A DNA stretch of 59,999 nt. Source: an uncultured Victivallales bacterium. Lineage in GTDB: Bacteria > Verrucomicrobiota > Lentisphaeria > Oligosphaerales > CAZSBQ01. The first letter of the stretch is position 1, and each line of letters opens with the position of its first letter. Under the pieces are notes generated by a model that was not told the DNA's origin, did no database searches, and saw only the letters and a program-made list of their open reading frames with translations. Shown one piece after another: positions 41,122 to 59,999 of the stretch. The position numbers and the translations under genes are program-made. The stretch is taken from positions 1 through 59,999 of the forward strand of contig CAZSBQ010000001.1 of NCBI GenBank assembly GCA_964604795.1. The letters run 5' to 3'.

Positions 41122-41237
41122 CAGAGATATACAACAGCAATAAGGTACAGGACCTGATTGGTTTGAGCATCCTTGCATCGGGATGAGAAGGCGTTAGAAA
41201 GAATTGTTGCCTGCTCGTGAAGGCCAGGTGTTATACC

Positions 41238-42494: not shown

Positions 42495-42522
42495 CATCGC
42501 GTGAAAGGATGCGGAGACCACT

Positions 42523-44397: not shown

Positions 44398-44474
44398 GAT
44401 TGTGTTTTTCGAGGATGTTCGACGAAAGGCGGAAAACAAGCGACACAAACCCAAAGAATATGCGAGGCTAAAGT

Positions 44475-44625: not shown

Positions 44626-44638
44626 GCAAGGTGCCGAC

Positions 44639-45010: not shown

Positions 45011-45059
45011 ATTGATGGTGCACAGATCATGCTCGCTCCAGACGGAAGAACAAAGTCAC

Positions 45060-46016: not shown

Positions 46017-46148
46017 GCAACACATGGACGTTCACCGTCTTTTCGGGAAGCCATACGAAGTCCGTGATCGGAAGGGTTCATCGGCAGCAAGAAACTTTGT
46101 TGGCCAGACCCTTTGCCAACCCAGGCTGATTCTTCAAACGGTACCGGG

Positions 46149-46176
46149 TTGACATCCGACTGTGCAATCGTATAAT
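46149..46176 (+). promoter_or_regulatory. near-consensus sigma70-type promoter
   Basis: TTGACA (46149-46154), a 16-nt spacer, then TATAAT (46171-46176). It sits 52 nt upstream of ATG 46228 in a 200-bp gap. Confidence 0.45.
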
Positions 46177-46227
46177 CGTCAACAACGATGAAGTGGATGA
46201 GAGCTTGAGAAACTGGTCTTGGCACCA

Positions 46228-47469
46228 ATGCGCATAGGTATCCTTATAAATTGCTTGGAGGTCGGTGGCGCGGAGCGCATGGCGTTGCGCCTGCTTGATC
46301 TACTGGACAGCCAGGGGCACGATGTCCTTTTGTTCACAACCGACGGAACGCGGGCCATGCCACTTCACACGGATGCGCGCAGAGCGGCGGAACTGGAGGA
46401 CTGTCTCGTTCAACTCAGCCAGCTCAGCGTCGAGGCCCCAACCTGGCGCAAAGTCTTGGCGACGCCTCGGCAACTCCTTAGACTCAGACACCACCTGAGG
46501 GCCTTCGACATTCAAACACTGGTCAGCTTCGAGGACCGCGCCAACATCGTCAGCATGACGGTGCCTGCCCGGATTCGTCGCATTCTCTCGATCCGACATC
46601 CCATGGTGTCCGTGCTGTTTTTCAAGACTCCCCTGAAGCGCTGGCTGATCGATGCCGCATTCCGCCTTTTTCTCCGCGGGGTGGATATCGTCACGTTCAA
46701 TTCCACCGAGTCCATGACCGAATTCCGCGACCACTTCGGCGTGCCGTCCGCACGTCTGGCTGTGATCCCCAACTTCTGCGACCACGAGGAACTCAAGGAG
46801 GAAGCTGGGCAACACGTCGTTCCTGCGGAATATGCCGAGGTATTTCACCACCCCACCGCGGTCGCCTGCGGCCGGTTCAAACCCGTCAAGGGCTTCGAGC
46901 AGCTGATCCGCGCCTTCAGCCGCGTTCACGAACAGCTTCCGGATGCCCGCCTCGTCATTCTTGGCGACGGCCCGCTGATGCCGGCGCTACGCGATCTGGC
47001 GCACCGCCTGGACCTCGGCAATCGGGTAGTCCTGCCGGGCTTCACCAACCATCCCCCCGCATGGCTGTCCAGGGCGGATGTCTTCGTGCTCAGTTCGCTG
47101 TCGGAGGGGTTTCCCAACGTTCTGCTGGAATCGCTCGCACTCGGCACTCCGGCCATTGCCGCCGACTGTGTTTCGGGGCCGCGCGAAATTCTGGCGCCGG
47201 CCACGGATGTCACCCAAAAGGCTGCGGAGGTGGAACTGGCCGAATTCGGCATTCTTACCCCTTCCTTGCCGCACGTCGTTCCCACAGCCGACACCCCGCT
47301 CAACGAGGCGGAATCCGCCCTGGTCGAGGGCTTGCTGCGCATCCTTCGGGATGACACTCTCCGGTCGCGCTACGCCGAACTCGGACATCGACGCTCCCTG
47401 GATTTCGGTGTGGATAAAATTCGTGAACGATGGCTGAACCTTCTGGGAGAATCGAACTCAAATGCTTAG
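46228..47469 (+). CDS. GT4-family glycosyltransferase
   Basis: MRIGILINCLEVGGAERMALRL at the N-terminus. EGFPNVLLESLALGTPAIAADCVSGPREIL is a GT-B motif. Confidence 0.85.
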   Translation: MRIGILINCLEVGGAERMALRLLDLLDSQGHDVLLFTTDGTRAMPLHTDARRAAELEDCLVQLSQLSVEAPTWRKVLATPRQLLRLRHHLRAFDIQTLVSFEDRANIVSMTVPARIRRILSIRHPMVSVLFFKTPLKRWLIDAAFRLFLRGVDIVTFNSTESMTEFRDHFGVPSARLAVIPNFCDHEELKEEAGQHVVPAEYAEVFHHPTAVACGRFKPVKGFEQLIRAFSRVHEQLPDARLVILGDGPLMPALRDLAHRLDLGNRVVLPGFTNHPPAWLSRADVFVLSSLSEGFPNVLLESLALGTPAIAADCVSGPREILAPATDVTQKAAEVELAEFGILTPSLPHVVPTADTPLNEAESALVEGLLRILRDDTLRSRYAELGHRRSLDFGVDKIRERWLNLLGESNSNA

Positions 47470-48322
47470 TCCCTTGCTGTCAATAGCTTCTCCCTGCGCG
47501 TGCCGGTTCGGGCATGTCGGCGTCATCATCAACAATCATCTGCAGGGTCGCAGGGAGATCCGCGCCCAGGTGGACACGCTGGCGCGGGACTTCGACTTCA
47601 TCGGTCTCGACGAGCTGAAGTCAGCGATCAAACAACGGCGGAAGCGACCGTTCTGTCTGCTCACCTTCGACGACGGCAAGCAGATTCAGGTCGAGGCGAC
47701 GGAGGAACTGGAGCGGCTCGGGATTCCGGCGGCAATCTACGTGGTGACCGCATCCATGGATTCGCCCGAGCCACTTTGGTTCGACAAGCTGCGCGCCCTG
47801 CGCGAAGCGGGTGTTCCTCTCCCCGACGACCTGCAACAGTCCCACATCAAAAAGCATCCCCTTGCCGATATCCAACCCCGGGTCGACGAGGCCTGCCGCC
47901 GCTTCGGTGTTGATGCCGAAGCCGAGGATCCGCGAAGCCAGGCCTTCGCGTGGGAAACCGCCCGCGATTTGGACCGTCGCGGATTCACCATCGGCGCCCA
48001 CACTGTGGACCACGCCATCCTGACCAATGAGACGTTCAGCAAAGCTGAACGCCAAATTCGCGCGTCCATTGAGGCGGTTTCCGAGGCGCTCGGCAAGCCC
48101 TGCACCACATTCGCCTTTCCCCGCGGCAGATATACAGACGATCTGCTGCGGATGGCGCAAGCTGCCGGTGCCGAAGACACAATGACAACCGAACCCGTTT
48201 GGTTTCGACGCGACACTCCTCTCATCCGCCTCCCTCGTGTGCAGCTCAGTGAGCGAGCCTCGCCCGACAAATGCCGTGCCAAACTCGTGGCTGCTTTGCC
48301 CGGCTTCATTTTGAAAAAATAA
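47462..48322 (+). CDS. polysaccharide deacetylase (NodB homology domain)
   Basis: LLTFDDGK is NodB motif 1. GAHTVDHAIL is the H-x-x-x-H motif 2. Confidence 0.8.
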   Translation: MLSPLLSIASPCACRFGHVGVIINNHLQGRREIRAQVDTLARDFDFIGLDELKSAIKQRRKRPFCLLTFDDGKQIQVEATEELERLGIPAAIYVVTASMDSPEPLWFDKLRALREAGVPLPDDLQQSHIKKHPLADIQPRVDEACRRFGVDAEAEDPRSQAFAWETARDLDRRGFTIGAHTVDHAILTNETFSKAERQIRASIEAVSEALGKPCTTFAFPRGRYTDDLLRMAQAAGAEDTMTTEPVWFRRDTPLIRLPRVQLSERASPDKCRAKLVAALPGFILKK

Positions 48323-48393
48323 CCATTCCAGCGTGGGGTTTGTTTTCAATCAACAGATGATATATGTTTGCAGCTTTTAGGGGATATGACAAC

Positions 48394-51300
48394 ATGATGA
48401 GTTTTCGCCGTCGAGCGTTTGCGTGCAGCCGAAGCTGGTGGATGTTGGCGGCGTTTGCGAGTGGTTTTTCGGGGATATTGGCGGGCTCGGCCTCCGCCGG
48501 CGTGTTCGATGGCATGACTCCGAAGCAGCGGCGGTATCTTGAGTCGCGCATCTTTGTGGTTTCCACCGCGCCGCAGCGCGCCGAATTGCCGTCCTCGGTG
48601 ATCAACACCAAGCATTTGCCGGCGGTGACTTCGCAGGGGCAGGCGGGAACGTGCGGTGCGTATGGGATCACCTACTACTACAAGACCTGGCAGGAGGCGC
48701 GCGAACGCGGGTGGACACGTCCGAACCCGGCCGTGAATCCGGAACGATGCGCGAGTCCGGCGTACAGCTACGATTTGCTGAGGCACGGACCTCAGTCCGG
48801 CGCGTCTCCCCTAGAAGTGGCGCAGCACATGGTGGATTTCGGAGCGTGCAATTGGCAGGACATGCCTTATGACGACACGTCCGTGGGATCGCGCAACTGG
48901 CCGCCTGCGGACAAGTGGCGGGCGGCCATGCCCTGGCGTGCGCAGGCGGCCGGCATCATCCCGAAGTTGGACCAGAAAGCGGGGCGGCGCGCTCTCAAGG
49001 CGCACCTGGCCGGCGGAGATTTGGCATCCACCGCGATGACAGCTTCGCAGAATCTGCACGACTACCCCGAGGGCAAATTGACATCCAACAACGTGATCTA
49101 CGCCTGCGACACCGACGGCGGAGTAATTGACCACGCCCTGACCATCATCGGCTACGACGACAACCGAGAATATCTGGATGAGGAAGCGGGAATCCTCCGG
49201 CGCGGCGCGTTTCTCGCGGTCAACAGTTGGGGGACGGGCTGGGGTATCAGAGAGCCCACCGTCGGCACGCGCGGGTTCTGCTGGCTGGCGTATCAGTTGT
49301 TCGACAATGGCGGCGGCTGGCCCGAGGCAGTCGTGATGCGCGACCGCAGGACCTATAATCCGGAATTTGTGGTCGAACTGGGAGTCGCCCACACGGAGGC
49401 CAAACTTTTTGGAACGCTGACCACCAGCGGACGCGGCGACCACGGCATCCAACTTTTTCCGGGACTGAATATGGCCCCGCACCCCACAGACCAATCCATC
49501 TGGATTGATGTCTCCGATCTGCTCGACTACGGACGCGCCGGATTCACCCTCGATATCCGGGACTTCAGCGAGGAAGCCGGCACGCTTGATCCCTTGAGAA
49601 TTGAAAGCTGGGACGGCACGCATGCCCTGGCTTCCCTGTCCGCGCCCGTACCAACCGTGGACAACAACACGGACCCCAGTCCCGTCACGCTCTATGTCGG
49701 ACGTTATCAGCAACGGTTGGACATGGGTGCGGCGGACGATTTGCGCCAGGGGAGCGCGGCGTGGGCTGACGCCGACGGGGACGGGGATTTGGACCTGCTG
49801 ATTGCCGGCGGTTTCGGCGGCGAGTCGTTCGAGAGGAAGACGCTGTACGCGCGCAACGACGGCGAAGCCGGGTTCACGGTTCTTGATCCGGGCATGATTG
49901 CAGGAGATTCCGCCGCCTGGATCGACATCGACAATGACGGGGATGTCGACGCCATCGTCAGCGCATCCGACCGAATCCCGGACAGTGCCAACCAGACGGT
50001 CGTGTATCGCAACGACGGCGGCGCGACCTTCACCGCCCTTGCGCAAACGCTTCCCGCGGCCAACGCCGGAGCACTCGCCGTCGGCGACTTCGACAACGAC
50101 GGACGCATGGACCTTTGCATCGGCAACGACGGCGAAACGGCCGTCTGGCTGAACCGCGGCGGCGGCAGCTTCTCGAAGCGGACGGCGGGGTTGCCCGCGC
50201 TGGGCGCTTACGCCGACGGGTATGCCATCCGCGCGGCCGATCTTAACGGCGACCACCGCCTGGACCTGGTTCTCTCCGGCATCGGCGACGACGAAGCGAC
50301 GCGGGCGTACCTAAATCAGGGGGTACCCCTGCGATTTTCTCCCGCGCCAGGCACGCTGCCCGACGTGCGGTTCCCCGCATTGGCCTTGGCGGACGCCGAT
50401 CTCGACGGGGATCTCGACCTGGTAATGAGCGGTTGCCGGGGAGACCGCCAGATGCAGCTGTTTCGCAATGACGGAGCGGGTGGTTTTAGGGCAACGGAGA
50501 CCTCGCTGCCGCAGCTTCGGGCCGGCAATCTCGCCTGGGCCGACGTCAATGCCGACGGCCGCCCCGATCTGCTCGCCACCGGGCGCGAAGAAGAGGTGTG
50601 GGGCGCGTATCCCGACCGCTACTACAAAAACGACACCCTGGTGCTGACCCAAAATGCCGACGGCGACTTCGAGCAATTCGGCCCGCCGCTGCCGGACGTT
50701 TCCCGGGGCGTTGCGAACTTCGCGGACGTCAACGGCGACGGCAACCCGGACATCCTCGTCGGCGGCACGCTGGCGCAGATTTATGAAGTCGCGAGTGACA
50801 AGCTCACCCTCGGTGTCTATCTGCACGGCGACACCAAGCCTGGGTGGTTTGACGGCAATACCGCACCGAATGCGCCGACTTCGTTGAACGCGGAGCATGA
50901 CGGACACGGACGCGTCACGTTCACCTGGAGCGGTGCCGCAGATGCCGAGACGCCCGAGGCAGGCTTACGCTACCAGTTGCGCTGCGGCACGACCAGCGGG
51001 GGGCACGACGTGTTCAGCGGCGTTCATCTGCCCGGTACCCCGGCAGCGTTTCAGCGCTCGGGCCACTTCCTTGACCATGTTCCCGTGGGAACCCTGTATT
51101 GGCAGGTGCGCACCGTGGATTCGGCAGGCATCTGTTCGTCCTGGTCGGCCGAGGAGCAGGCTGCCGTGGACACCTACACGCACCCCCAGTACCTGGCGGT
51201 CGACGGGAATGCGGCGTACGAAGGTGCCGTCGATCCCGCACCCGGCACTTACCCGCACGACCGGGGCGATGTCGTCTCGCTCACCGCTACGCCCGCCGCC

Positions 51301-54300
51301 GGCTACGCGTTCAGCGAATGGCAGGGCGACATCGACGGCGTGGCCGATCCCGCAGCCGCCAATACCACGGTGACGCTCGACGCCGACCGACAGTTGACCG
51401 CGGTATTCAGGCGAATTGCGGACCCCGCACGCCCGGCCTGGACGCTCGCGGCGGATGGCGTTTCCGGCTACTACGCGACTCAACAGCACACGCTCGAATT
51501 CTTTGACGGGTACCTCCTGCGCATGGGAGGACAAACCTCGAGCTGGGCCCTGCAAAACCTCGTCTACGCATCCAACGACGATGGCCAAACCTGGCGGCAG
51601 CTCTGGCAGGTCGCCTGGAATGACCACGAGATCGAATTTTCTGTCCCCTGGCCCGCCCGCGCCGGCCACTGCTCTGAAGTTTTCAACGGCAAACTCTGGG
51701 TCTTCGCCGGCGAGGGGGCGGAAGATTTCCTGGCCGACGTGTGGAGGGCGAGCGATGTTTTCACCTGGGAGCGAGTGACCGACGCCGCACCATGGGGCAG
51801 GAGGATAAACGCGGGCAGCGCGGTGTTCGACGACAAACTGTGGATTCTCGGCGGCGAAAAATTTGCGGGTGGCGGCAATCCCCTCGACCGCTTCAGCGAT
51901 GTCTGGTCGAGCGCGGACGGCGAAAACTGGACCCAGGTCACCGACAACGCCCCCTGGCCCGCCGGGACCGTGGAGGCGACCACCTTCAACGGCAGCCTGA
52001 TTGTGCTGGCCCGCAGCGAAGTCTGGCAGAGCGCCGACGGCGAAAATTGGAACGCCCTCACTCTCGACGCCCCGTTCGGACAGCTCCTCGACACCTGCCT
52101 GGAAGCCTTCAACGGCAAACTGGTCGTCGTGGGCGGATATGATAACACCACCTGGCAGAGAAGCGACCAGACATGGACCTCGCTCGACGGCGTCAACTGG
52201 TCGGAAATCGCGCCCGATCCCGACTCCCACTGGAGCGCGCGCAGCCACACGGCTTCCTGCGTTGAGGGCGACCGGCTCTGGCTCGTCGGCGGAAAACAGG
52301 CGGACGGCGACATCGCGGACGACGCCTGGTACCTCGGGGCGGGCGAACTGCCGGACACCATGGGACGGCTGCGCCTGTTCGTCGAACCGCTTGCCGGCGG
52401 TCGCATCAAACCGCCCGGCAACACCAGCTACGTCGACGATCTCGGTACCGACTTCTCCCTCGTTGCGAACCCTGCAATCGGCTACGCCTTCGACCACTGG
52501 GAGGGGCCGGTAGCGGACCCGGACAGCGCCGAAACCACCGTCGCGCTCGAACGCGACACCGAGGTGACCGCCCATTTCACCACCACGAACACCGCGCTGG
52601 CCATCACTTTTCAGCCGGACATCAGGGTTGGCGGCGTTTCGGTCTCGCCCGGCACCTCCGACCGGGAGTGGGACTGGGAAGCGGACACCATTACGTACAT
52701 GCATCCGCGCGGGGCGGAGCTGACCGTGCAGGCCACGCCGAAGTTCGGATACGTCTTCGACCACTGGGAAGGCGATCTGAGCGGCACCTCCGGCACGGCG
52801 GACCTCGTGCTTGACGAACCGCGAAATATCACCGCCGTGTTCGTTGAGGATCCGATACTCTCCACCGGCACCCTGGCCTGCAGCGATACGTGGGCGGCGG
52901 TGATCAAGGCGGACGGCACGGCCTGGGCGGCCGGCACCAATGACAACCGCCAGCAGGGACATGCGCTCGCGCCGGACCAGCCCGGCGAATTCTGGCCGGT
53001 CGCCATCGCCTCGAACGTGCGCCAGCTTTTTCTCGCCAAAAACGGCGGCCTCGGCATCACGAGCAACGGTGACTTGCTCGGTTGGGGACCGGCCTGGGGA
53101 GGTTTGGCCGACTACGAACTTGCCGCGCATCCGGTACTGACCTCGCTGGACAGCGGAATTCGCGGGTGTGCGGGCGCGTTTGGCTTGACCACGGACCGAA
53201 ATCTGTATTTCTTTGACCGATACGGTAAACTGTTCGACAGCGTGAACCGAAGTGTGGACCTCGGATTCGACAGCGATCTGGGCGATATCGTCGCGCTCGC
53301 GGAAGGCCCGAACACCGTCTTCGCCGTAACCAGGGACGGGAAACTCTACGGCTGGGGTGAAAACGCTGTCGGCCAACTCGGGCTCGGCGATAGTTTGCCG
53401 ACGCACGAACGTCCGCAACGGGTACGCACCGGCGGCGGGGTGCGTCGCGTCGCGTGCGGACACGACCCCGTACGCGTCTTCACGCTCGCGCTGCTGGACG
53501 ATCTGACCGTGGCAAGCTGGGGAGACAACAGCAGAGGACAGCTCGGACGCACCGTCGACGAGTCAACCCCCACCGCTCTGTCCGCAGCGGTTCCGGAACT
53601 GGCGAACATCGTCAAGATTTCCGCCGGCGACGGACACGGTCTCGCTCTCGATCAAAACGGCAATCTCCACGCTTGGGGCGACAACACGTTCGCTCAGCTT
53701 GGCACCGGCGATTTCGACGACGCGGCGGCGCCCGTCCCGGTGGCGACCGACATTGCGGACATCGCCGCCGGACCGCTCTACACGCTGGTGCGCCGAACCG
53801 ACGGTGCATTCGCCTGGTGCGGCCAGGTGCCGGGACGCGACCAGCCGCTGATGACGCTGACCGAGATTCCCGGACTGGCCTACGACGATCCGAGCCTGAC
53901 ACTGGAAGTTGCCGTCGAACCGTCCGGCATCGGTGAATTCTCGCCGCGTGCCGGGCGCTCGCACATTGCGGCGAACCGCAGCATCCCTCTGCATGCCGAA
54001 GACACGGAACGCTACGAATTTGTCCATTGGTCGGAAAACGTCGACGATCCGCTGGGTGCGGACACCGCGCTGACCACGTCGACAAGCACGAGCATCAGCG
54101 TTCACTACCGCTATCAGGCAGAAGCGGCGGCCCGGCTTGCGATCGGGGCAGGCACAGGCGGCCAGGTGAATCCGGCGGACGGGACACACGAATACGAGCC
54201 GGGGACGGTTGTCACGGTACGGGCCGACGCCGATACCGGCTACCGCTTTCAGCGCTGGCAGGGGCCCGTCAGTGATCCCCGCAGTCGAACCACCACCATC

Positions 54301-57300
54301 ATCATGGACCGGGATCAGAGCGTGCTGGCTAACTTCGCCGAACTGCGCCTGGAGCCGCAACCGCAGATATCCACCGGACGCAACAATGTCATGGAATACG
54401 ACGGCTTGACACTCGACAGCGAGGGCAAGGTCTACGACTACGGCGCGACCGCTTCGGGATCGCCAATCCCTCTGAACGGCGAGGGCGATTTGTTGGAAAA
54501 CGTCGTGGCGCTGGCCGTCGGCTCCTCCCACCAGCTCGCCCTGAGCCAGGACGGCGCCGTGTGGGCTTGGGGCGACAACACACAGGGCCAGTGCGGAACC
54601 GGAGACGTGGAAACCGACAGCTGCGGGTTCCCGCAAACGGTGCTGGCGGACAATGTCGTTTTGCAGGGAATCAGCCGCATCGCCGCGGGCGCACAGTTTT
54701 CACTGGCCCTCGATCCTAACGGTTTCCTGTACAGTTGGGGCAACAACACGCGGGGGCAGCTCGGCCACAGCCCGGAAGCGGACACGGTGCCGAGCGCCAA
54801 CCCCGTCCGCGACGCCGACGGCGATGCCCTGACCGACGTGCGCGCCATTGCCTGCGGTGCGGAGTTCGCACTGGCCGCACTGGCCGACGGTACGGTGCGT
54901 GGATGGGGAAACAACGATGCCGGGCAACTGGGATTCATCGCTCGGCGAGGCGAGGCGATCCCGCAGGCTGTGCCGAGGGTACCCGCGGCCGTCAACGTGG
55001 CGGCGGGCGGCGCCTGCGCCGGGATGATCTCCGCCGAGGGTGAAGTTTGGACCTGGGGCGACAATACCTACGGCCAGCTCGGCCACGGCACGACGGGAGG
55101 CGCGGAAACGCCCGCCCGCGTCAATGGCCTGCCGCCCATCGTCTCGCTCGCCGCAGGGCCCGAACACATGCTGGCGCTTGATGAAAACGGCACAGTCTGG
55201 GCCTGGGGGCGCGGCGAAATGGGACGGCTCGGCAACGGCGCTCTCGCCGACAGCAACACACCCGTGCAGGTACTCGATCCCGCCCGCAGTGCGCCGCTCT
55301 CCGGCATTCAGGCCGTGGCTGCACATGCTCATTCGTACGCGATCAACAGCGGCGGACGCCTTTTGCAATGGGGCTATGACCGCAACTCGTTTGGAGAACC
55401 CGACCCGGTCAGCTTGCCCTGGGACCGCCTCGGGCTCGGGCAGCCCGACGGCGACGGCCTGTGCGCGCTCAGTCTCAGCAGCTTCCCGGAAGAAGGCGGC
55501 AGCGTCCATCCCAACGAGGGGCTGGTCTTCGTCAATCGCGGCACACTGGTGGAAATCCAGGCGCAACCGTCTGCGGGCTACCGTTTTCTCGGCTGGGGCG
55601 GCGACCTGTCCGGAACGTTGGCTACCGCCACCGTTCGCATGCGTGACGACCTCGCTGCCGTGGCCTACTACGAATTGGCGGGGCCGAGACTGCGTCTGGC
55701 ACCGCTGAGAATGACTCCGGGGCAGACCTCCCATCTCGAGGTGTTTCTCGACGGCGAATCCGCTCCCCTGGAAGGCGTGCAGCTGGAATTGGCCGCACCC
55801 GACGGATTCTCGTTCGGACCGGCAAGCTACGGCCTCAACAATGGTCCCAATAGCGAGCTTTCCCAGACGGTTCCCGAACCCACGCGCACAATGGCCGTGC
55901 TGGTCGACACCGATGATCAGGCAGGCCTGCTGGTGGACGGCGACCTGCCGCTGATGAGCTTTGAAATCATCGCCGAGCCCGACTGCGCCCCCGGAACTTA
56001 CACCGTCGAACTATCGGACAGAACGGCGCACACGCCGGTCGTCGCCTACGCGGACGGACACCTGTGGCAGCGGGCGGAAACCGAAGTGGCAAGCGTGACC
56101 GTTGACCCCACGCAGGGGCTTGTCCTGCGCCTGGTCGCCGCGCCTGCGGACAGCGACACGGACATTCTTACCACGCGCCCCGCCGGGCCCTCGAGCCTGC
56201 GCGCAGACCGGGACTTCAACGTGGAACTCTGGCTACAGGATCGACGCGCCAACGGGCAGCCCGTGGCCGCCGCGCAGCTTGACCTGCTTCTGCCGGCCTC
56301 CCTGACCGCAGTAGAAGTCAACGGCACCGAAGCCACGAGCGCCGTGTCCGGCGTCGTCAACGGCGGTACCGTCAGCGATTTCGGCGGCAGCTTGGCGGAG
56401 GGTGCCGTGTCGCTGGGCGACTGGACTTGCGTCGCCCGGCTCCGGGTCGCGCCCACCACCGCCGGTCAGGCAAGCCTGAGCATTGCGGACGCCGCAATCC
56501 GCTTGGACGACGACACGGTTTTGACCGAACCGGCCATCGCCCTGCAACCCGGCAACGCGCTGGACGTCACGTTTCGGGACAACGCCGCGCCCGCCGCACA
56601 GCCGGGGCCCGCCGTCTCGGTGCGCTGGGCCGGTCAGGTAAGCGGCATGCTCGGCGGTGCGGACGACAATCCCGACGATAGGCTCAGCTACACTCTTGTC
56701 GACCAGCCCGAGCACGGCGAAATCATCGCCTTCGACGCGGAGACCGGTGCGTTCACCTACCAGCCGCACCTCGCGTACAACGGCCCGGACCGCTTCTCGT
56801 ACACAGTGAGCGACGGCACCCTCACTTCCGACCCCGCCGACCAAGCGCTTTTCGTGTCTCGCGGCTGGACCGCCACGCTCCGACGCGGTGCCGGCTGGTG
56901 CGTATTCGGACAGGACGAGGAGGCGTCGGAGGACCTGGACACCGTCGATTTGTCCGCGGACTCCGCAGCCACAGTGGGCTTTGAGGCGCCCGATTCGAGC
57001 GGCCTGCTGCAGCGGGATTTGCGCGCCCGCGATGACGCCCCCGTCTGGCGCCTTCGCGCCGCTCCCGCCCCGGAAATCACGAAGCTTGAATGGGATTCGC
57101 GGGCCATTCCCGGAGGCATGCATCTGGTGCGGGTGTCGCCCAAATCGGCCGTGCCGGTGCTGGTGGACATGCGGGATCGGAGCCGTCTCGACTTGGCGCC
57201 GGGTGTTGTGCATGAATTTGACTTGGCCATGCCCGAAGGCTATGCGCTGCCGCTGGGATCGGGCTGGAACCTGATCGCTTTTCCCGGCACGCCGGTTCGC

Positions 57301-57675
57301 AACGAGGTTGCCGGCGTGTTTGCGGACAGCGCGGACGAACAGGTGCAGGTGTATGAGTGGGAAAATGGCGTGTACAACCGTCCCTCCCACCTCCGCGCAT
57401 ACCGGGGCTACTGGGTGCGCACCGAGGGCAAAACGACCCGGAACCTATCCCTCATACCGGCCTTCGTCGCCGAGTTTCAGCTCGAAAAGGGCTGGAATCT
57501 GCTCGGGGTGCCCTATCCCGCCGCATTGCCTGTTGTTTCGGGCCTGTTTCCCGCAGCCTGGCGGTTTGACGGCGAACGCTACGAACGGGCGACGCGCCTG
57601 TTGCCGGGCACCGCCTACTGGGTGTTCGCATACGAACCGGCTGCCATCACCTTTGCAGAGGAGATTTCTCAATGA
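48394..57675 (+). CDS. giant secreted multidomain protein: papain-like C1 peptidase, FG-GAP propeller, FN3, Kelch propeller, two RCC1 propellers, six B-repeat-like linkers, two cohesin-like modules, cadherin-like domain, shared C-terminal module
   Basis: ORF 48364-57675, with the likely start at ATG 48394 (MMSFRRRAFACSRSWWMLAAFASGF... signal). Candidate C1 triad: QGQAGTCGAYG (Cys codon 48652-48654), VIDHALTIIGYDDN, AVNSWGTGWG. FG-GAP loops are repeated about 7 times (ADADGDGDLDLLIAGG etc.). Kelch-like blades are repeated about 5 times (FNGKLWVFAG, FDDKLWILGG, ...). RCC1 motifs occur in two blocks (GWGENAVGQLGLGD, WGDNTQGQCGTGD, ...). Confidence 0.9.
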   Translation: MMSFRRRAFACSRSWWMLAAFASGFSGILAGSASAGVFDGMTPKQRRYLESRIFVVSTAPQRAELPSSVINTKHLPAVTSQGQAGTCGAYGITYYYKTWQEARERGWTRPNPAVNPERCASPAYSYDLLRHGPQSGASPLEVAQHMVDFGACNWQDMPYDDTSVGSRNWPPADKWRAAMPWRAQAAGIIPKLDQKAGRRALKAHLAGGDLASTAMTASQNLHDYPEGKLTSNNVIYACDTDGGVIDHALTIIGYDDNREYLDEEAGILRRGAFLAVNSWGTGWGIREPTVGTRGFCWLAYQLFDNGGGWPEAVVMRDRRTYNPEFVVELGVAHTEAKLFGTLTTSGRGDHGIQLFPGLNMAPHPTDQSIWIDVSDLLDYGRAGFTLDIRDFSEEAGTLDPLRIESWDGTHALASLSAPVPTVDNNTDPSPVTLYVGRYQQRLDMGAADDLRQGSAAWADADGDGDLDLLIAGGFGGESFERKTLYARNDGEAGFTVLDPGMIAGDSAAWIDIDNDGDVDAIVSASDRIPDSANQTVVYRNDGGATFTALAQTLPAANAGALAVGDFDNDGRMDLCIGNDGETAVWLNRGGGSFSKRTAGLPALGAYADGYAIRAADLNGDHRLDLVLSGIGDDEATRAYLNQGVPLRFSPAPGTLPDVRFPALALADADLDGDLDLVMSGCRGDRQMQLFRNDGAGGFRATETSLPQLRAGNLAWADVNADGRPDLLATGREEEVWGAYPDRYYKNDTLVLTQNADGDFEQFGPPLPDVSRGVANFADVNGDGNPDILVGGTLAQIYEVASDKLTLGVYLHGDTKPGWFDGNTAPNAPTSLNAEHDGHGRVTFTWSGAADAETPEAGLRYQLRCGTTSGGHDVFSGVHLPGTPAAFQRSGHFLDHVPVGTLYWQVRTVDSAGICSSWSAEEQAAVDTYTHPQYLAVDGNAAYEGAVDPAPGTYPHDRGDVVSLTATPAAGYAFSEWQGDIDGVADPAAANTTVTLDADRQLTAVFRRIADPARPAWTLAADGVSGYYATQQHTLEFFDGYLLRMGGQTSSWALQNLVYASNDDGQTWRQLWQVAWNDHEIEFSVPWPARAGHCSEVFNGKLWVFAGEGAEDFLADVWRASDVFTWERVTDAAPWGRRINAGSAVFDDKLWILGGEKFAGGGNPLDRFSDVWSSADGENWTQVTDNAPWPAGTVEATTFNGSLIVLARSEVWQSADGENWNALTLDAPFGQLLDTCLEAFNGKLVVVGGYDNTTWQRSDQTWTSLDGVNWSEIAPDPDSHWSARSHTASCVEGDRLWLVGGKQADGDIADDAWYLGAGELPDTMGRLRLFVEPLAGGRIKPPGNTSYVDDLGTDFSLVANPAIGYAFDHWEGPVADPDSAETTVALERDTEVTAHFTTTNTALAITFQPDIRVGGVSVSPGTSDREWDWEADTITYMHPRGAELTVQATPKFGYVFDHWEGDLSGTSGTADLVLDEPRNITAVFVEDPILSTGTLACSDTWAAVIKADGTAWAAGTNDNRQQGHALAPDQPGEFWPVAIASNVRQLFLAKNGGLGITSNGDLLGWGPAWGGLADYELAAHPVLTSLDSGIRGCAGAFGLTTDRNLYFFDRYGKLFDSVNRSVDLGFDSDLGDIVALAEGPNTVFAVTRDGKLYGWGENAVGQLGLGDSLPTHERPQRVRTGGGVRRVACGHDPVRVFTLALLDDLTVASWGDNSRGQLGRTVDESTPTALSAAVPELANIVKISAGDGHGLALDQNGNLHAWGDNTFAQLGTGDFDDAAAPVPVATDIADIAAGPLYTLVRRTDGAFAWCGQVPGRDQPLMTLTEIPGLAYDDPSLTLEVAVEPSGIGEFSPRAGRSHIAANRSIPLHAEDTERYEFVHWSENVDDPLGADTALTTSTSTSISVHYRYQAEAAARLAIGAGTGGQVNPADGTHEYEPGTVVTVRADADTGYRFQRWQGPVSDPRSRTTTIIMDRDQSVLANFAELRLEPQPQISTGRNNVMEYDGLTLDSEGKVYDYGATASGSPIPLNGEGDLLENVVALAVGSSHQLALSQDGAVWAWGDNTQGQCGTGDVETDSCGFPQTVLADNVVLQGISRIAAGAQFSLALDPNGFLYSWGNNTRGQLGHSPEADTVPSANPVRDADGDALTDVRAIACGAEFALAALADGTVRGWGNNDAGQLGFIARRGEAIPQAVPRVPAAVNVAAGGACAGMISAEGEVWTWGDNTYGQLGHGTTGGAETPARVNGLPPIVSLAAGPEHMLALDENGTVWAWGRGEMGRLGNGALADSNTPVQVLDPARSAPLSGIQAVAAHAHSYAINSGGRLLQWGYDRNSFGEPDPVSLPWDRLGLGQPDGDGLCALSLSSFPEEGGSVHPNEGLVFVNRGTLVEIQAQPSAGYRFLGWGGDLSGTLATATVRMRDDLAAVAYYELAGPRLRLAPLRMTPGQTSHLEVFLDGESAPLEGVQLELAAPDGFSFGPASYGLNNGPNSELSQTVPEPTRTMAVLVDTDDQAGLLVDGDLPLMSFEIIAEPDCAPGTYTVELSDRTAHTPVVAYADGHLWQRAETEVASVTVDPTQGLVLRLVAAPADSDTDILTTRPAGPSSLRADRDFNVELWLQDRRANGQPVAAAQLDLLLPASLTAVEVNGTEATSAVSGVVNGGTVSDFGGSLAEGAVSLGDWTCVARLRVAPTTAGQASLSIADAAIRLDDDTVLTEPAIALQPGNALDVTFRDNAAPAAQPGPAVSVRWAGQVSGMLGGADDNPDDRLSYTLVDQPEHGEIIAFDAETGAFTYQPHLAYNGPDRFSYTVSDGTLTSDPADQALFVSRGWTATLRRGAGWCVFGQDEEASEDLDTVDLSADSAATVGFEAPDSSGLLQRDLRARDDAPVWRLRAAPAPEITKLEWDSRAIPGGMHLVRVSPKSAVPVLVDMRDRSRLDLAPGVVHEFDLAMPEGYALPLGSGWNLIAFPGTPVRNEVAGVFADSADEQVQVYEWENGVYNRPSHLRAYRGYWVRTEGKTTRNLSLIPAFVAEFQLEKGWNLLGVPYPAALPVVSGLFPAAWRFDGERYERATRLLPGTAYWVFAYEPAAITFAEEISQ

Positions 57676-59999
57676 ATCATCGACACATGTTGCTCGTTTT
57701 AACGCTGAGCGGCGTTCTGGTCGCTGTGACGGGCGCAGCGGAGATCGTCGGTGACGTCAATGGCGACGGCGCCCGCAATGTCGCAGACCGTGTCCTGCTG
57801 GAGTCAATTCTCGACGGGCGCACCGCGGAGGCCGCAGCGGCGGATGTGGATGGCGACGGTGCCGTTGACTCGCGGGATGCCGAAGCGCTGATCGATCTCC
57901 TGCTCGAACGCCCCCCGTACCAGCCCGTCGGAAACTCCGAACTCCCCGCCACCGGCGGCAGCATCACTCTCGGCGCTCTCACTCTCACCGCCGACGCAGA
58001 CGATTTTGCGGAATCCGCAACCGTATACGCGGCATCGGCGGAGCGCAGCCTCGGATTCGATGACGACGCCAACTCGGTGGTGTACCGGCTGGACGGCATT
58101 CCCTACAGCGCCGACGGCGCGGAAACTGGCCTGGCCGTGGCATTGCCGGTGGCCGACAACCGCCGGTCCGTGGTAACAACGATGATCCTGGTGGGCGAGG
58201 AAGTCAACGCGCCGAGCAGTGCGGGCGTCGCGCTGGCCACGCGCCTGGTGCCCGCGCTCGTCGCCGACGGCATGGCTTCGATCGAGCTTCCCCCCATTCC
58301 AGCGCCGCCGCCCGAACTCGAAGAAGAGCTGCCGGAAACCGTCCGGCTCTACGTGCAGCGCGTGGAGGGAATGGAATCATACTCTTTCACCGTTGACGAC
58401 GACGCGCGGGGTGACGCCATATCCCCATTGGAGGGCGAGACTCCCGTCGAACCGGGTTCGTCTGAGGCGGCTCAAGAGGACTTTCGCCCTCCAGAAGGGG
58501 CGGTGCCATACACGCCGCAAGCCTCTCGTACAAGGTCACGCGCGGGGTTGCAGTTGGACTTGGTGACCCCGACCACGACGACCGCCGAGCAGAAGCAGCG
58601 GGTGGTTGATGCCATGACCAACGCCGCCGCCACCATCGCCGGACTTGGGTTCGACCTGACAAAACGCTCCGACCCCGTCAAAATCGAGGTCAAAAAGTTG
58701 AGCAAAGGCACGAGCGGATACTACCAGCCGAGCATGGTCAGCCTGAACTGGACAACGCTGGAAATCAATCAGAGCCTGGTGACGAACCCAACGAAGGAAA
58801 CCACCCTGCGGCGGACGATCATCCACGAGTACTTCCACATGATCCAGGCGCGGTACGACCCGCGCAGCGCCATTGCGCAGGCCAAGTACAACGCTCCCCA
58901 GCTCTGGATTGACGAGGCCGCGTCGGTGTGGATCGAAAAGTACGCGAGCGGCGGAACAATCAGCGATTTCATGGGCAAATACGCCGGGGAAGTGGTGAAG
59001 GGCCTGCATGTGCCGTGCTCGGGATTGAGCTGGACCAACGCGGCCGCCCGAACCAAGGCGCAAAACCACGGATACGGACTCTCCATGATGCTCGAATTCC
59101 TGTTCGGCTCGCACGGGACCGCGGAGAATCCCACGCTGGCGAATGTCTACACGAGCCTGCTCGCGGGAACGTCGGTCGAACAGTCCTTCCTCGATGCCGT
59201 GCCCAATCCGGCGAGTTGGTGGGACGATATGCTGATCGCCTACGCGCAGGGCGACATCGGCGTGCCCCCCGTGGATTTTGCGACCTCGGTCCTCAACAAA
59301 AACCGCTCACTGACCTTCAAAAAGGACCACGCACCGTCGGACACGCTGGAGCGCACGCTGCCGCGGCTCGATGAATTCGAAAGCACCGTCACGTTCGTCA
59401 ATTGGAACTGGAAGAGCCAGCCCCCCGATCACGGGAAACGACGTCTGGTCGCTGAACTCGCGGCGGACGACGACCAGTTCGCGATCATGGGGGTTCAGCC
59501 AAAAACAGGACGAAAAAGCGGCAATGTGCTGCGCGGCAAAAGCATGGCACTGGGGATTCTGGACGGGCGACACCACACGCTGTGGACGGACGAGATGACG
59601 CTGTCCGACAACGGGCAGTCGCTCATGCCCGGCCACTACCTGCTCGCGCGCCGGCTGGTCGATTCCGCCGCCGAGGCCGCGCGTCCCGTCCTGAAGGTAT
59701 GGTACGTCGACACGCGCGTGCCGCTGGAGCATGCGCAGGGAAGCATGGCCCTGCGCAAGTACACGGTCAGCGGACACATCGAATGTGATCAGATATTGAA
59801 GCTCGACAGCTACCCGCTCCCCATCTTGAACGTGGAAATGGACGGCGCGATCAACCTCCCCGTTTCCCTCGCCATCGACAGCACCGCCGATCCGGACAGC
59901 TACTACACAACCCAAAGGTATGAAATCGAGGTGACCCATTATAGCGCCGACACAACCCAGACCAGCGTCGACACCTTCGGCCCCTTCGCCGGCGAGAAC
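57672..59999 (+). CDS. secreted dockerin-domain protein with HExxH (gluzincin-like) metalloprotease motif; 3' end outside the window
   Basis: This ORF is not in the supplied track because it has no stop before the window end. My own translation in the frame of ATG 57672 found no stop through 59999. The ATG overlaps the upstream TGA as ATGA (57672-57675). Signal peptide MNHRHMLLVLTLSGVLVAVTGAAE. Dockerin-like duplicated Ca loops DVNGDGARNVAD and DVDGDGAVDSRD lie at 57747-57911. HEYFH is at 58824-58838, followed by LWIDEAASVW. Confidence 0.8.
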   Translation, partial: MNHRHMLLVLTLSGVLVAVTGAAEIVGDVNGDGARNVADRVLLESILDGRTAEAAAADVDGDGAVDSRDAEALIDLLLERPPYQPVGNSELPATGGSITLGALTLTADADDFAESATVYAASAERSLGFDDDANSVVYRLDGIPYSADGAETGLAVALPVADNRRSVVTTMILVGEEVNAPSSAGVALATRLVPALVADGMASIELPPIPAPPPELEEELPETVRLYVQRVEGMESYSFTVDDDARGDAISPLEGETPVEPGSSEAAQEDFRPPEGAVPYTPQASRTRSRAGLQLDLVTPTTTTAEQKQRVVDAMTNAAATIAGLGFDLTKRSDPVKIEVKKLSKGTSGYYQPSMVSLNWTTLEINQSLVTNPTKETTLRRTIIHEYFHMIQARYDPRSAIAQAKYNAPQLWIDEAASVWIEKYASGGTISDFMGKYAGEVVKGLHVPCSGLSWTNAAARTKAQNHGYGLSMMLEFLFGSHGTAENPTLANVYTSLLAGTSVEQSFLDAVPNPASWWDDMLIAYAQGDIGVPPVDFATSVLNKNRSLTFKKDHAPSDTLERTLPRLDEFESTVTFVNWNWKSQPPDHGKRRLVAELAADDDQFAIMGVQPKTGRKSGNVLRGKSMALGILDGRHHTLWTDEMTLSDNGQSLMPGHYLLARRLVDSAAEAARPVLKVWYVDTRVPLEHAQGSMALRKYTVSGHIECDQILKLDSYPLPILNVEMDGAINLPVSLAIDSTADPDSYYTTQRYEIEVTHYSADTTQTSVDTFGPFAGEN

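What the first reader, a model, noticed from the sequence alone, without database searches (positions are those of the whole stretch)
48394..57675. Roughly 3100-aa secreted protein fusing a papain-like peptidase to four beta-propellers of three different families
Seen in sequence (aa numbering from ORF start 48364):
- Signal peptide.
- C1-peptidase-like domain at aa ~75-315 with a candidate Cys97/His257/Asn287 triad.
- About 7 FG-GAP/VCBS Ca-loop blades at aa ~455-815 (nt 49726-50808).
- FN3-like domain at aa ~833-935.
- About 5 Kelch-like blades at aa ~1025-1325 (nt 51436-52338).
- RCC1 block 1 at aa ~1500-1830 (nt 52861-53853).
- RCC1 block 2 at aa ~2000-2345 (nt 54361-55398).
- Six ~70-aa repeats with the pattern G..V.P..G......G..V.L.A.P..GY.F..W.G......A.TTV.+..D..+TA.F. 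They sit at aa 942-1015, 1335-1405, 1410-1493, 1845-1915, 1922-1991 and 2366-2436. They resemble InlB B-repeat / Listeria-Bacteroides repeat domains and act as spacers between the propellers.

Each domain family is established individually. I do not recognise this combination with an N-terminal cysteine protease and C-terminal cohesin-like modules as a described architecture.

Inference: a surface-displayed multivalent binding platform carrying its own protease. The gene lies immediately after an exopolysaccharide locus.
Basis: partly seen in the sequence, partly recalled or inferred. Interest (0 to 1): 0.7.

Follow-up and report, generated by a model that had tools for sequence, protein, structure and literature searches.

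The report
Giant protease scaffold with docking partner
A 3,100-residue secreted protein carries a papain-like protease, four beta-propellers and a cohesin module, and it is translationally coupled to a previously unnoticed dockerin-bearing zinc protease gene; the pair is a split version of a widespread, uncharacterised two-protease protein.

Summary
ORF 48364-57675 (likely start 48394) is real, and independent assemblies contain full-length orthologs at 30-70% identity.

**Confirmed domains**
- A Sec-type signal peptide.
- A C1 peptidase whose Gln91, Cys97, His257, Asn287 and Trp289 are invariant in 52 homologs.
- A 7-blade FG-GAP propeller, an FN3-like domain, a Kelch propeller (6 blades by my count, not about 5) and two 7-blade RCC1 propellers.
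- Six InlB-type B-repeats.

**C-terminus**
- Only one cohesin module is supported (aa 2437-2560).
- It is followed by an unassigned beta-sandwich, a Big_9 domain and a recurrent, unassigned C-terminal domain.

- A gene starts at 57672, and its ATG overlaps the giant gene's TGA. It encodes a signal peptide, a type I dockerin and an HExxH...E zinc protease.
- This partner lies directly beside the giant gene in 12 related loci.
- In a roughly 1,700-aa family it is fused in one chain directly after the C1/FG-GAP/FN3 module. Five related loci (four with the fused gene, one with a long form) then carry a small separate cohesin gene alongside.

**Interpretation**
- Most likely this is a cohesin-dockerin-assembled dual-protease complex on a multi-propeller binding scaffold, in a Victivallales-like (PVC) bacterium.
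- The link to the exopolysaccharide locus is not conserved.
- I found no description in the literature, and database names are generic.

The parts
48364..57675 (+). Giant gene (3103-aa ORF). The likely translation start is 48394, giving 3093 aa.
48394..48498 (+). Sec-type signal peptide: MMSFRRRAFACSRSWWMLAAFASGFSGILAGSASA, cleaved before G.
   Evidence: Read from the sequence. Orthologs have comparable N-terminal hydrophobic leaders, and the RRR motif is not conserved.
48550..49353 (+). Papain-like (C1) cysteine peptidase domain, aa about 63-330. Key codons: Gln91 48634-48636, Cys97 48652-48654, His257 49132-49134, Asn287 49222-49224.
   Evidence: Pfam PF00112 scores 25.2 bits against a cutoff of 20.7. 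The catalytic residues are invariant in 52 homologs. AlphaFold2 pLDDT is above 90. Foldseek matches procathepsin L 3qt4 at E 2e-7. PDB sequence hits are Lpg2622 and Cwp84.
49366..49722 (+). Beta-sandwich between the peptidase and the propeller, aa about 335-453.
   Evidence: Secondary structure of the AlphaFold2 model. No Pfam hit.
49726..50853 (+). Seven-bladed FG-GAP / integrin-alpha-type propeller with Ca-binding DxDxDG loops, aa about 455-830.
   Evidence: Pfam, Ca-loop motifs, Foldseek matches to CRTAC1, integrin alpha and PVL lectin.
50860..51168 (+). FN3-like beta-sandwich, aa about 833-935. This is the end of the conserved N-terminal module.
   Evidence: AlphaFold2. The region is conserved in 50 aligned homologs. 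No direct Pfam hit.
51187..51408 (+). InlB-type B-repeat 1 (Flg_new_2), aa 942-1015.
51436..52353 (+). Kelch propeller, aa about 1025-1330, six blades by my count.
   Evidence: Pfam PF24681 scores 56.6 bits against a cutoff of 50, with further Kelch_1, Kelch_4 and Kelch_6 hits. The blade count was read from the sequence.
52366..52842 (+). B-repeats 2 and 3, aa 1335-1405 and 1410-1493.
52861..53868 (+). RCC1-like propeller 1, aa about 1500-1835. Seven blades; the N-terminal blades are degenerate.
53896..54336 (+). B-repeats 4 and 5, aa 1845-1915 and 1922-1991.
54361..55413 (+). RCC1-like propeller 2, aa about 2000-2350, seven blades.
   Evidence: Best WD40_RLD stretch is aa 2045-2341. Hairpin motifs.
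55459..55671 (+). B-repeat 6, aa 2366-2436.
55672..56043 (+). Divergent cohesin module 'D1', aa 2437-2560, modelled with nine strands.
   Evidence: A profile search of PDB hits R. flavefaciens cohesins 5n5p (E 0.009), 5aoz and 5m2o. A profile search of 1.84 billion representatives gives 112 hits. Of 37 hits scanned, 21 carry Pfam Cohesin, on overlapping regions. hhalign gives 99.8%. The AlphaFold2 model has nine strands. Foldseek lists the cohesin dyad 3l8q and 2w1n. There is no direct Pfam hit.
56050..56580 (+). Beta-sandwich 'D2', aa 2563-2739. Family unassigned; not demonstrably a cohesin.
56581..56859 (+). Big_9 / cadherin-like Ig domain, aa 2740-2832.
56860..57240 (+). Unassigned, partly low-confidence region 'D4', aa 2833-2959.
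57241..57672 (+). Recurrent C-terminal domain 'D5', aa 2960-3103, with a tandem GWN(L/V)...GYW motif. Possibly an anchoring or sorting module.
   Evidence: The same domain sits at the extreme C-terminus of many other large secreted proteins and of window ORF 15333-17795. It has no PDB sequence relatives.
57672..59999 (+). Partner gene, which runs off the window after 776 codons; the closest homolog is 798 aa. Its ATG (57672-57674) overlaps the giant gene's TGA (57673-57675). Features: signal peptide aa 1-22; type I dockerin aa 23-78 (nt 57738-57905); gluzincin motif H385-E-Y-F-H389 (nt 58824-58838) with Glu422 (nt 58935-58937).

Best explanation
The giant protein is the scaffold subunit of a secreted two-protease complex.

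**What the sequence and comparisons show**
- After Sec export, an apparently active papain-like cysteine peptidase sits at the N-terminus. AlphaFold2 models it as rigidly packed with a beta-sandwich, a Ca-binding FG-GAP propeller and an FN3-like domain.
- A variable array follows: one Kelch and two RCC1 propellers, spaced by InlB-type B-repeats.
- The array ends in a cohesin module and further beta-sandwich domains.
- The translationally coupled downstream gene encodes a secreted zinc metalloprotease (HExxH...E) with an N-terminal type I dockerin.

**What I infer**
- The dockerin plugs into the giant protein's cohesin. This rebuilds non-covalently the cysteine-protease plus metalloprotease unit that exists as one polypeptide in the roughly 1,700-aa relatives.
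- The propellers act as lectin-like or protein-binding modules that hold the proteases on a polymeric substrate. Candidate substrates are glycoproteins or proteoglycans of detritus, or the envelope of another cell.
- The recurrent C-terminal domain tethers the complex to the producing cell.

Functional coupling of the two genes is well supported. The physical cohesin-dockerin contact, the substrate and the anchoring are all inferred.
For: **Active C1 peptidase**
- Q91, C97, H257, N287 and W289 are invariant in 52 homologs.
- Pfam scores above its cutoff.
- The AlphaFold2 model has pLDDT 91.7 and pTM 0.89.
- Foldseek matches procathepsin L.

**Partner gene**
- Its start codon overlaps the giant gene's stop codon as ATGA.
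- Dockerin: Pfam 30.9 bits against a cutoff of 22.9, plus PDB dockerin hits at E 1e-4.
- HExxH plus the downstream Glu are invariant in 16 homologs.
- The profile matches the neutral metalloprotease 7bb8 across the motif.

**Conserved linkage**
- The dockerin-metalloprotease gene lies directly downstream in the window, L001, L002, L014, L017 and L028. L028 is from the cultured Oligosphaera ethanolica.
- It lies directly upstream in L007, L008, L009, L013, L015 and L032.
- It is fused right after the FN3 domain in 11 loci.

**Cohesin**
- D1 is assigned to the cohesin family by transitive profile homology.
- The same cohesin type sits near the C-terminus of long forms in ten loci.
- It occurs as a small neighbouring ORF in L011, L012, L020, L021 and L029. 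L011, L012, L021 and L029 carry the fused gene; L020 carries a long form.

**Variable middle**
- Homologs lack the Kelch propeller or carry only one RCC1 propeller. This fits a binding array inserted between conserved ends.
Against: - No binding or structural test of the D1-dockerin pair was possible.
- Pfam's Cohesin model does not hit D1 directly, and D2 has no detectable family.
- In the fused relatives the dockerin is retained even though the proteases are already covalently joined. There the dockerin must bind something else, so in the split form it may also bind a third protein.
- Six of 11 fused loci showed no nearby cohesin.
- One long form, L032, has no detected cohesin.
- No known anchor, such as a lipobox, PEP-CTERM, T9SS CTD or SLH domain, was found.
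- The ligand specificity of every propeller is unknown.
- Protease activity is inferred from conserved residues only.
Confidence: 0.5

Rival explanations
1. Both proteins are cargo. The giant protein's cohesin and the partner's dockerin do not bind each other. Each connects to other cohesin- or dockerin-bearing proteins, such as the small cohesin-TSP3-dockerin adaptor proteins, in a larger extracellular network. The adjacency of the two genes reflects co-regulation only.
For: - The fused relatives keep the dockerin and often have a separate small cohesin gene next door.
- Many D1-type cohesin proteins are small adaptors that themselves carry dockerins.
Against: - In the long forms the cohesin has moved into the same polypeptide whose partner gene became separate. 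That is the pattern expected if the cohesin compensates for the fission.
- No other D1-type cohesin was detected in the 60-kb window.
Confidence: 0.22
2. One reading: a self-contained, surface-displayed multivalent adhesin that carries its own protease and is functionally tied to the upstream exopolysaccharide locus.
For: - The protein has a signal peptide, four propellers and Ig-like spacers.
- An exopolysaccharide-type gene set lies upstream in this window.
Against: - Orthologs at 70%, 51% and 33% identity lie in unrelated neighbourhoods.
- The only conserved neighbour is the dockerin-metalloprotease gene.
- No recognised anchor domain was found.
Confidence: 0.15
3. The C1 domain is a maturation or self-processing protease, as Cwp84 is for S-layer precursors, rather than a substrate-degrading enzyme. 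It would cleave the giant protein or the partner to activate or release them.
For: - The nearest solved sequence relatives include Cwp84, a cell-surface processing protease that is followed by a lectin-like sandwich. A sandwich likewise follows the peptidase here.
- No I29-type propeptide was detected.
Against: - No conserved cleavage site has been identified.
- The constant pairing with a second, unrelated protease across fused and split forms fits cooperative degradation of an external substrate better.
Confidence: 0.1
4. An assembly chimera or a decaying pseudogene.
For: None found.
Against: - The reading frame of 9.3 kb is uninterrupted.
- Colinear orthologs cover 98-100% of the protein in independent ENA, JGI and Logan assemblies.
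- Catalytic residues are conserved.
- GC content across the gene is 0.61-0.67, against 0.53-0.65 in the upstream 48 kb.
Confidence: 0.01

Closest known systems
Cellulosomes and non-cellulosomal cohesin-dockerin systems. Examples: clostridial and ruminococcal scaffoldins; Peer et al. 2009, seen only as a reference cited in PMC8542988; the inferred Ca. Stygibacter complex with dockerin-bearing S8 and C25 peptidases, PMC8542988.
   Same: - A secreted enzyme with a type I dockerin and a large non-cytoplasmic protein with a cohesin.
- The proposed assembly is Ca-dependent cohesin-dockerin docking.
- Binding modules on the scaffold bring enzymes to an insoluble substrate.
   Different: - Only one supported cohesin, so the stoichiometry would be 1:1 rather than a multi-enzyme scaffoldin.
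- The scaffold itself carries a catalytic domain.
- The cargo is a protease, not a glycoside hydrolase.
- The binding modules are beta-propellers rather than CBMs.
- No SLH, sortase or T9SS anchor is present.
- The producers are diderm PVC-type bacteria.
- A single-chain fused version exists.
Cwp84 of Clostridioides difficile (PDB 4d59, 4ci7) and Lpg2622 of Legionella pneumophila (PDB 6a0n)
   Same: - Secreted or surface-associated bacterial C1 peptidases.
- They are the best PDB sequence matches around the His and Asn motifs.
- In Cwp84 the peptidase is followed by a lectin-like beta-sandwich (my recollection of the published Cwp84 structure, not tested here). A sandwich occupies the same position in this protein.
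   Different: - The matches are weak, with E values from 9e-4 to 0.1.
- Neither known protein has FG-GAP, Kelch, RCC1 or cohesin modules, or a partner metalloprotease.
- Cwp84 has a propeptide and cell-wall-binding repeats (my own knowledge).
The roughly 1,700-aa family of uncharacterised C1/FG-GAP/FN3/dockerin/gluzincin proteins (for example P0043, P0047, P0064; loci L010-L012, L016, L019, L024, L029, L030, L035)
   Same: - The N-terminal 900 aa are homologous at 30-35% identity with the same catalytic residues.
- The partner protein is homologous to the C-terminal half of these proteins, including the dockerin and the HExxH...E motif.
   Different: - In this window the chain is split at the FN3/dockerin boundary.
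- About 2,150 aa are inserted: B-repeats, Kelch, two RCC1 propellers, the cohesin, Ig-like domains and the D5 domain.
Gingipains (Kgp, RgpA) of Porphyromonas gingivalis (my own knowledge, not tested here)
   Same: A secreted cysteine protease fused to large non-catalytic adhesin or binding domains on the surface of a diderm bacterium.
   Different: - Gingipains belong to family C25, not C1.
- They have haemagglutinin/adhesin domains, not propellers.
- They use a T9SS C-terminal domain.
- They have no cohesin-dockerin element.

Membership tests
Peptidase family C1 (papain-like, clan CA) | A catalytic Cys in a Q-x5-C context (oxyanion-hole Gln), together with catalytic His and Asn and the NSWG..WG motif | tested here: met
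   The motifs QGQAGTC97, DH257 and VN287SWGTGWG are present. All five key residues are invariant in 52 homologs.
Peptidase family C1 (papain-like, clan CA) | Pfam PF00112 score above the gathering threshold | tested here: met
   25.2 bits against 20.7 for aa 1-460, and 21.2 bits for the whole protein. Only profile positions 122-195 of 220 are aligned.
Peptidase family C1 (papain-like, clan CA) | Papain fold | tested here: met
   The AlphaFold2 model has pLDDT 91.7. Foldseek matches procathepsin L 3qt4 at E 2e-7 with TM-score 0.58 normalised to the target. The geometry of the triad could not be inspected.
Peptidase family C1 (papain-like, clan CA) | An I29-type inhibitory propeptide (typical of C1A, but not required for the family) | tested here: not met
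   No Pfam hit upstream of the catalytic domain. Only about 30 residues with two short helices separate the signal peptide from the domain.
Peptidase family C1 (papain-like, clan CA) | Thiol-dependent peptidase activity | not testable with these tools
   Requires an enzyme assay with a C97A control.
Cohesin (PF00963) - module D1, aa 2437-2560 | A direct match to the Pfam Cohesin model | tested here: not met
   No Cohesin hit at E up to 10 for the C-terminal segments.
Cohesin (PF00963) - module D1, aa 2437-2560 | Homology to bona fide cohesins through profiles | tested here: met
   - Three of the four PDB profile hits are R. flavefaciens cohesins, the best at E 0.009.
- Of 37 profile hits in the 1.84-billion library, 21 carry Pfam Cohesin.
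- The matched regions overlap in P0141, P0172 and P0165.
- hhalign gives 99.8%.
Cohesin (PF00963) - module D1, aa 2437-2560 | A nine-stranded beta-sandwich | tested here: inconclusive
   The AlphaFold2 model has nine strands with pLDDT about 70-89. Foldseek on the whole C-terminus lists cohesin structures 3l8q and 2w1n among many Ig-like hits. Jelly-roll topology was not verified.
Cohesin (PF00963) - module D1, aa 2437-2560 | Ca-dependent binding of a dockerin | not testable with these tools
A binding assay is needed.
Dockerin type I (PF00404) - partner aa 23-78 | A Pfam score above threshold, and two Ca-binding loop-helix repeats | tested here: met
   30.9 bits against 22.9. Two loops are present, DVNGDGARNVAD and DVDGDGAVDSRD. 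PDB dockerin hits reach E 1e-4.
Gluzincin metallopeptidase (clan MA(E)) - partner | HExxH plus a downstream Glu as the third zinc ligand | tested here: met
   H385, E386, H389 and E422 are invariant in 16 homologs. They align with HEYQH...NEA of the neutral metalloprotease 7bb8 at E 7e-5.
Gluzincin metallopeptidase (clan MA(E)) - partner | A match to a curated peptidase family model above threshold | tested here: not met
   Only sub-threshold hits were found: SprT-like and Peptidase_M9 in the partner, and Peptidase_MA_2 at 23.5 bits against 32.4 in the fused homolog P0047.
Cellulosome (scaffoldin plus dockerin-bearing enzymes) | A scaffoldin with several cohesins that recruits glycoside hydrolases, together with a cell-wall anchor | tested here: not met
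   There is one supported cohesin, the cargo is a protease, and no GH, CBM or SLH domain is present.
FG-GAP / integrin-alpha propeller | Seven FG-GAP blades with Ca-binding loops | tested here: met
   Pfam FG-GAP_3 scores 105 bits. Six DxDxDG loops are found by pattern, and one degenerate loop (DLNGDHRLD) was read in the translation. AlphaFold2 and Foldseek match CRTAC1, integrin alpha and PVL lectin.
RCC1-like propeller | Seven RCC1 repeats; Pfam WD40_RLD or RCC1 above threshold | tested here: met
   WD40_RLD scores 378 bits against 150. RCC1 gives 8 stretches and RCC1_2 gives 7. Each block shows seven hairpin motifs.
Kelch propeller | Kelch repeats above the Pfam threshold | tested here: met
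   PF24681 scores 56.6 bits against 50; Kelch_1 scores 38.9 and Kelch_4 scores 35.9.
InlB B-repeat (Flg_new_2, PF18998) | Repeats of about 70 aa above the Pfam threshold | tested here: met
   199.6 bits against 23.6, in 5 stretches. The sixth copy aligns with the others and has a weak TIGR02543 hit.

The most novel reading that the evidence does not exclude
A widespread, so far undescribed extracellular dual-protease machine built from three modules:
- a papain-like peptidase on an FG-GAP propeller;
- a dockerin-tagged gluzincin;
- a dedicated cohesin.

It occurs in Lentisphaerota, Kiritimatiellota, Verrucomicrobiota, Sumerlaeota, Omnitrophota and other phyla. The three modules occur fused, split or as three genes. 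In this lineage the cohesin-dockerin pair would have been recruited to re-join two halves of an ancestral single-chain enzyme, after about 2,000 residues of propeller-based binding array were inserted.
Probability: 0.4. Interest if true: 0.7.

Novelty: new variant of a known kind. Interest (0 to 1): 0.55.

Why it matters
- It would extend the cohesin-dockerin assembly principle from polysaccharide degradation in Firmicutes to a defined protease complex in diderm PVC-group anaerobes.
- It gives a clean natural example of gene fission compensated by a docking pair.
- It assigns a testable function to a family that matched 433 stretches in GTDB species-representative genomes and is currently labelled only 'RCC1 family', 'FG-GAP-like repeat-containing' or 'hypothetical'.
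- A homolog with the same gene pair exists in a cultured strain, Oligosphaera ethanolica DSM 24202, so experiments are feasible.
- If the propellers prove to be lectins, the system would bear on how these bacteria attack glycoproteins and proteoglycans in sediments and guts.

Tried and rejected
- **Homolog search with the C-terminal 668 aa.** The word filter was saturated by Big_9 proteins, so even the known orthologs were missed. This search slot gave nothing useful.
- **Is D2 a second cohesin?** hhalign of D1 against D2 found no relation. D2 against PDB and against the cohesin profile gave nothing. I do not call D2 a cohesin.
- **D4-D5 profile against PDB.** Nothing was found, so the fold and function remain unassigned.
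- **Tat export.** The SFRRRAF motif in the leader is not conserved in orthologs, so I treat the leader as a Sec signal.
- **Link to the exopolysaccharide locus.** Rejected as a conserved feature. L001 has a sulfatase and FtsY/NusB upstream, and L002 and the P0011 contig have other genes.
- **Literature.** Four searches for the domain combination, for giant genes or for dockerins in these phyla found no description. The giant-gene papers on Omnitrophota were not read, and from their titles and abstracts they concern far larger proteins. PMC6071333 was irrelevant.
- **Foldseek on multi-domain models.** Hits were dominated by generic propeller and Ig matches.
- **Assembly artefact.** Rejected on the basis of colinear orthologs.


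Full report
**1. The observation**

The window contains one uninterrupted + strand ORF, 48364..57675, of 3103 aa. The gene call stored in the protein collection starts at aa 11 (nt 48394, MMSFRRR...), which is the start given in the finding. After that start the sequence has a basic stretch, a hydrophobic core and an ASA/G site, typical of a Sec signal. The RRR motif is not conserved in orthologs, so I do not propose Tat export.

Pfam on the whole protein gives these scores:

| Pfam family | Bits | Cutoff | Note |
|---|---|---|---|
| WD40_RLD | 378 | 150 | |
| RCC1 | 249 | - | 8 stretches |
| RCC1_2 | 206 | - | |
| Flg_new_2 (divergent InlB B-repeat) | 200 | - | 5 stretches |
| FG-GAP_3 | 105 | - | |
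| Kelch_KLHDC2 | 56.6 | 50 | |
| Big_9 | 41 | - | |
| Cadherin_5 | 39 | - | |
| Peptidase_C1 | 21.2 | 20.7 | 25.2 bits when aa 1-460 are scanned alone |

- Six canonical DxDxDG loops are found by pattern. With one degenerate loop (DLNGDHRLD) read in the translation, they make seven FG-GAP blades.
- Each RCC1 block has seven hairpin motifs.
- I count six Kelch blades rather than about five.

**2. The protease domain**

- In an alignment of 52 homologs, Q91, C97, H257, N287 and W289 are invariant. These correspond to papain's Gln19, Cys25, His159, Asn175 and Trp177; that correspondence is established knowledge, not a test made here.
- AlphaFold2 on aa 41-940 with 49 homologs gave pLDDT 91.7 and pTM 0.89. 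Peptidase, a beta-sandwich (aa about 335-453), the propeller and the FN3-like domain are thus modelled as one rigid module.
- Foldseek matched the propeller to CRTAC1, integrin alpha and the PVL lectin. It matched the peptidase to procathepsin L 3qt4 at E 2e-7.
- By sequence, the nearest solved relatives are Lpg2622 of Legionella and Cwp84 of C. difficile, both weakly.
- No I29-type propeptide was found.

**3. Relatives**

- A search of 5.8 billion proteins found about twelve full-length relatives, P0002-P0013. They share 30-70% identity; nine of them cover at least 98% of the query and the others 76-90%; lengths run from 2870 to 3392 aa. They come from independent ENA, JGI, Logan and NCBI assemblies, which rules out an assembly artefact.
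- A second set has the C1, FG-GAP, RCC1 and B-repeat parts but no Kelch propeller.
- A third set of about 40 clusters is roughly 1,700 aa long, with C1, FG-GAP, an FN3-like domain and a dockerin.
- Source names are generic.
- A pattern scan of GTDB species genomes matched at least 599 stretches, of which 433 encode relatives.
- The whole 900-aa N-terminal module occurs in Victivallales (best, 44% and 42% identity), other Lentisphaeria, Oligosphaera ethanolica DSM 24202, Opitutales, Kiritimatiellia, Sumerlaeota, Omnitrophota, Hydrogenedentota and some Gammaproteobacteria.
- The peptidase domain alone reaches archaea.
- The window also encodes a TonB-dependent receptor and ExbB, so the organism is a diderm. 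It is most likely a Victivallales-like member of the PVC group.

**4.

- The 70%-identical ortholog and two others are each followed by a protein of about 790-840 aa with an N-terminal dockerin.
- tblastn shows the same gene in the window from about 57705 to the window end, at 67% identity to the L001 protein.
- Reading the DNA, its ATG (57672-57674) overlaps the giant gene's TGA (57673-57675) as ATGA. The same overlap occurs in L002.
- The product starts MNHRHMLLVLTLSGVLVAVTGAAE, a signal peptide.
- It continues with a type I dockerin: Pfam 30.9 bits against 22.9, with PDB cellulosomal dockerins at E 1e-4.
- Further on it has HEYFH (aa 385-389) and WIDEAAS. H385, E386, H389 and E422 are invariant in 16 diverse homologs.
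- The profile aligns across this motif with the neutral metalloprotease 7bb8 at E 7e-5.
- The closest database homolog is 87% identical and 798 aa long, so the window lacks only about 22 residues of the partner. Named homologs come from Lentisphaeria and Victivallales.

**5. Fusion, fission and the cohesin**

- The partner protein is homologous to the C-terminal half (aa about 935-1440 and beyond) of the roughly 1,700-aa family.
- HMMs for the C1 module, the metalloprotease module and D1 were run over all ORFs of 81 loci, with these results:

| Arrangement | Loci |
|---|---|
| Dockerin-metalloprotease gene directly downstream of the long gene | window, L001, L002, L014, L017, L028 |
| Dockerin-metalloprotease gene directly upstream, same strand | L007, L008, L009, L013, L015, L032 |
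| Fused in one ORF right after the FN3-like domain | L010, L011, L012, L016, L018, L019, L021, L024, L029, L030, L035 |

- D1 (aa 2437-2560) has no direct Pfam hit.
- A profile of nine orthologs hits R. flavefaciens cohesins in PDB: 5n5p at E 0.009, plus 5aoz and 5m2o.
- The same profile finds 112 proteins in a 1.84-billion-protein library, many with several tandem copies.
- Of 37 of those hits scanned, 21 carry Pfam Cohesin and 6 carry a dockerin.
- The matched regions overlap the Pfam Cohesin regions in P0141, P0172 and P0165.
- The AlphaFold2 model of D1 has nine strands.
- D2 (aa 2563-2739) is a confident sandwich but shows no relation to D1 or to cohesins.
- D1-type cohesins lie near the C-terminus of the long forms in ten loci.
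- They are also encoded by small separate ORFs next to the C1-bearing gene in L011, L012, L020, L021 and L029. Four of these loci have the fused gene; L020 has a long form.
- Three modules therefore travel together in several arrangements: C1/FG-GAP/FN3, dockerin-gluzincin and cohesin.

**6. Mechanism**

Shown:
- a secreted giant protein with an intact C1 active-site signature;
- four propellers and a cohesin;
- a translationally coupled, secreted dockerin-gluzincin;
- conserved adjacency or fusion of the two.

Inferred:
- The dockerin docks on D1 and rebuilds the two-protease unit.
- The variable propeller and B-repeat array provides reach and ligand binding.
- D5 (aa 2960-3103) anchors the complex. 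D5 recurs at the extreme C-terminus of many large secreted proteins, including window ORF 15333-17795.

The main weakness is that the fused relatives keep their dockerin and often have a separate cohesin gene. The dockerin could therefore bind a third protein here too. I put 0.5 on the docking model, 0.22 on the 'both are cargo' model, and less on the alternatives.

**7. Comparison with known systems**

- The arrangement works like a minimal cellulosome, or like the non-cellulosomal cohesin-dockerin assemblies inferred from genomes, for example in Ca. Stygibacter with dockerin-bearing peptidases (PMC8542988).
- It fails the cellulosome definition: one cohesin, no glycoside hydrolases, and a scaffold that is itself catalytic.
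- The peptidase is a member of family C1 by motif, by Pfam threshold and by fold.
- Its nearest characterised relatives, Cwp84 and Lpg2622, share none of the other modules.
- I found no paper describing the architecture or the gene pair.

**8. Verdict**

- This is a real and correctly described protein. Its individual domains are ordinary.
- Novelty: a new variant of a known kind.
- Interest: 0.55.

Noticed in passing
window 15333-17795 (+): An 820-aa protein with He_PIG and Big_9/cadherin-like domains ends in the same C-terminal D5 domain as the giant protein (hmmsearch E 9e-15). D5 may therefore be a shared sorting or anchoring module in this genome.
   Followed up: partly
window 5695-11635 (+): A TonB-dependent receptor with a CarboxypepD_reg N-terminal domain (5695-8925) and a long MotA/ExbB-family protein (9875-11635). 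These indicate a diderm organism with TonB-dependent uptake close to the protease locus.
   Followed up: no
window 17818-22494 (+) and 13718-15163 (+): A 1558-aa and a 481-aa TPR-repeat protein lie between the transporter genes and the glycan-synthesis genes. Their function is unknown.
   Followed up: no
window 32497-34038 (-): A protein that combines an FHA / Yop-YscD-like domain with a MoxR-type AAA_3 ATPase, which is an unusual fusion.
   Followed up: no
window 36669-48322 (+): A glycan-modification gene set directly upstream of the giant gene: a methyltransferase, a BacA undecaprenyl-diphosphatase, an AlgX-like SGNH protein, a carbamoyltransferase, GT2, GT4 and a polysaccharide deacetylase. 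The adjacency is not conserved in orthologous loci.
   Followed up: partly
P0011 cluster; the contig: In a more distant relative the giant protein (3392 aa) has an internal dockerin and a PGAP1-like alpha/beta-hydrolase region. It is followed by an overlapping 401-aa ORF. One cluster member is 3790 aa, as if the two ORFs were fused, which would be another fusion/fission variant.
   Followed up: no
P0153, P0155, P0158, P0171: Small proteins of about 300 aa made of a signal peptide, a D1-type cohesin, bacterial TSP3 Ca-binding repeats and often a C-terminal dockerin. They look like adaptor proteins of a non-cellulosomal cohesin-dockerin network.
   Followed up: partly
L028 9767-19673 (Oligosphaera ethanolica DSM 24202, NZ_JAUSVL010000001.1): A cultured strain carries a 2439-aa homolog (C1, FG-GAP, one RCC1 propeller, B-repeats, a D1-type cohesin and D5). 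It is followed by an 838-aa dockerin-HEFVH protein. This makes it a practical experimental model.
   Followed up: partly
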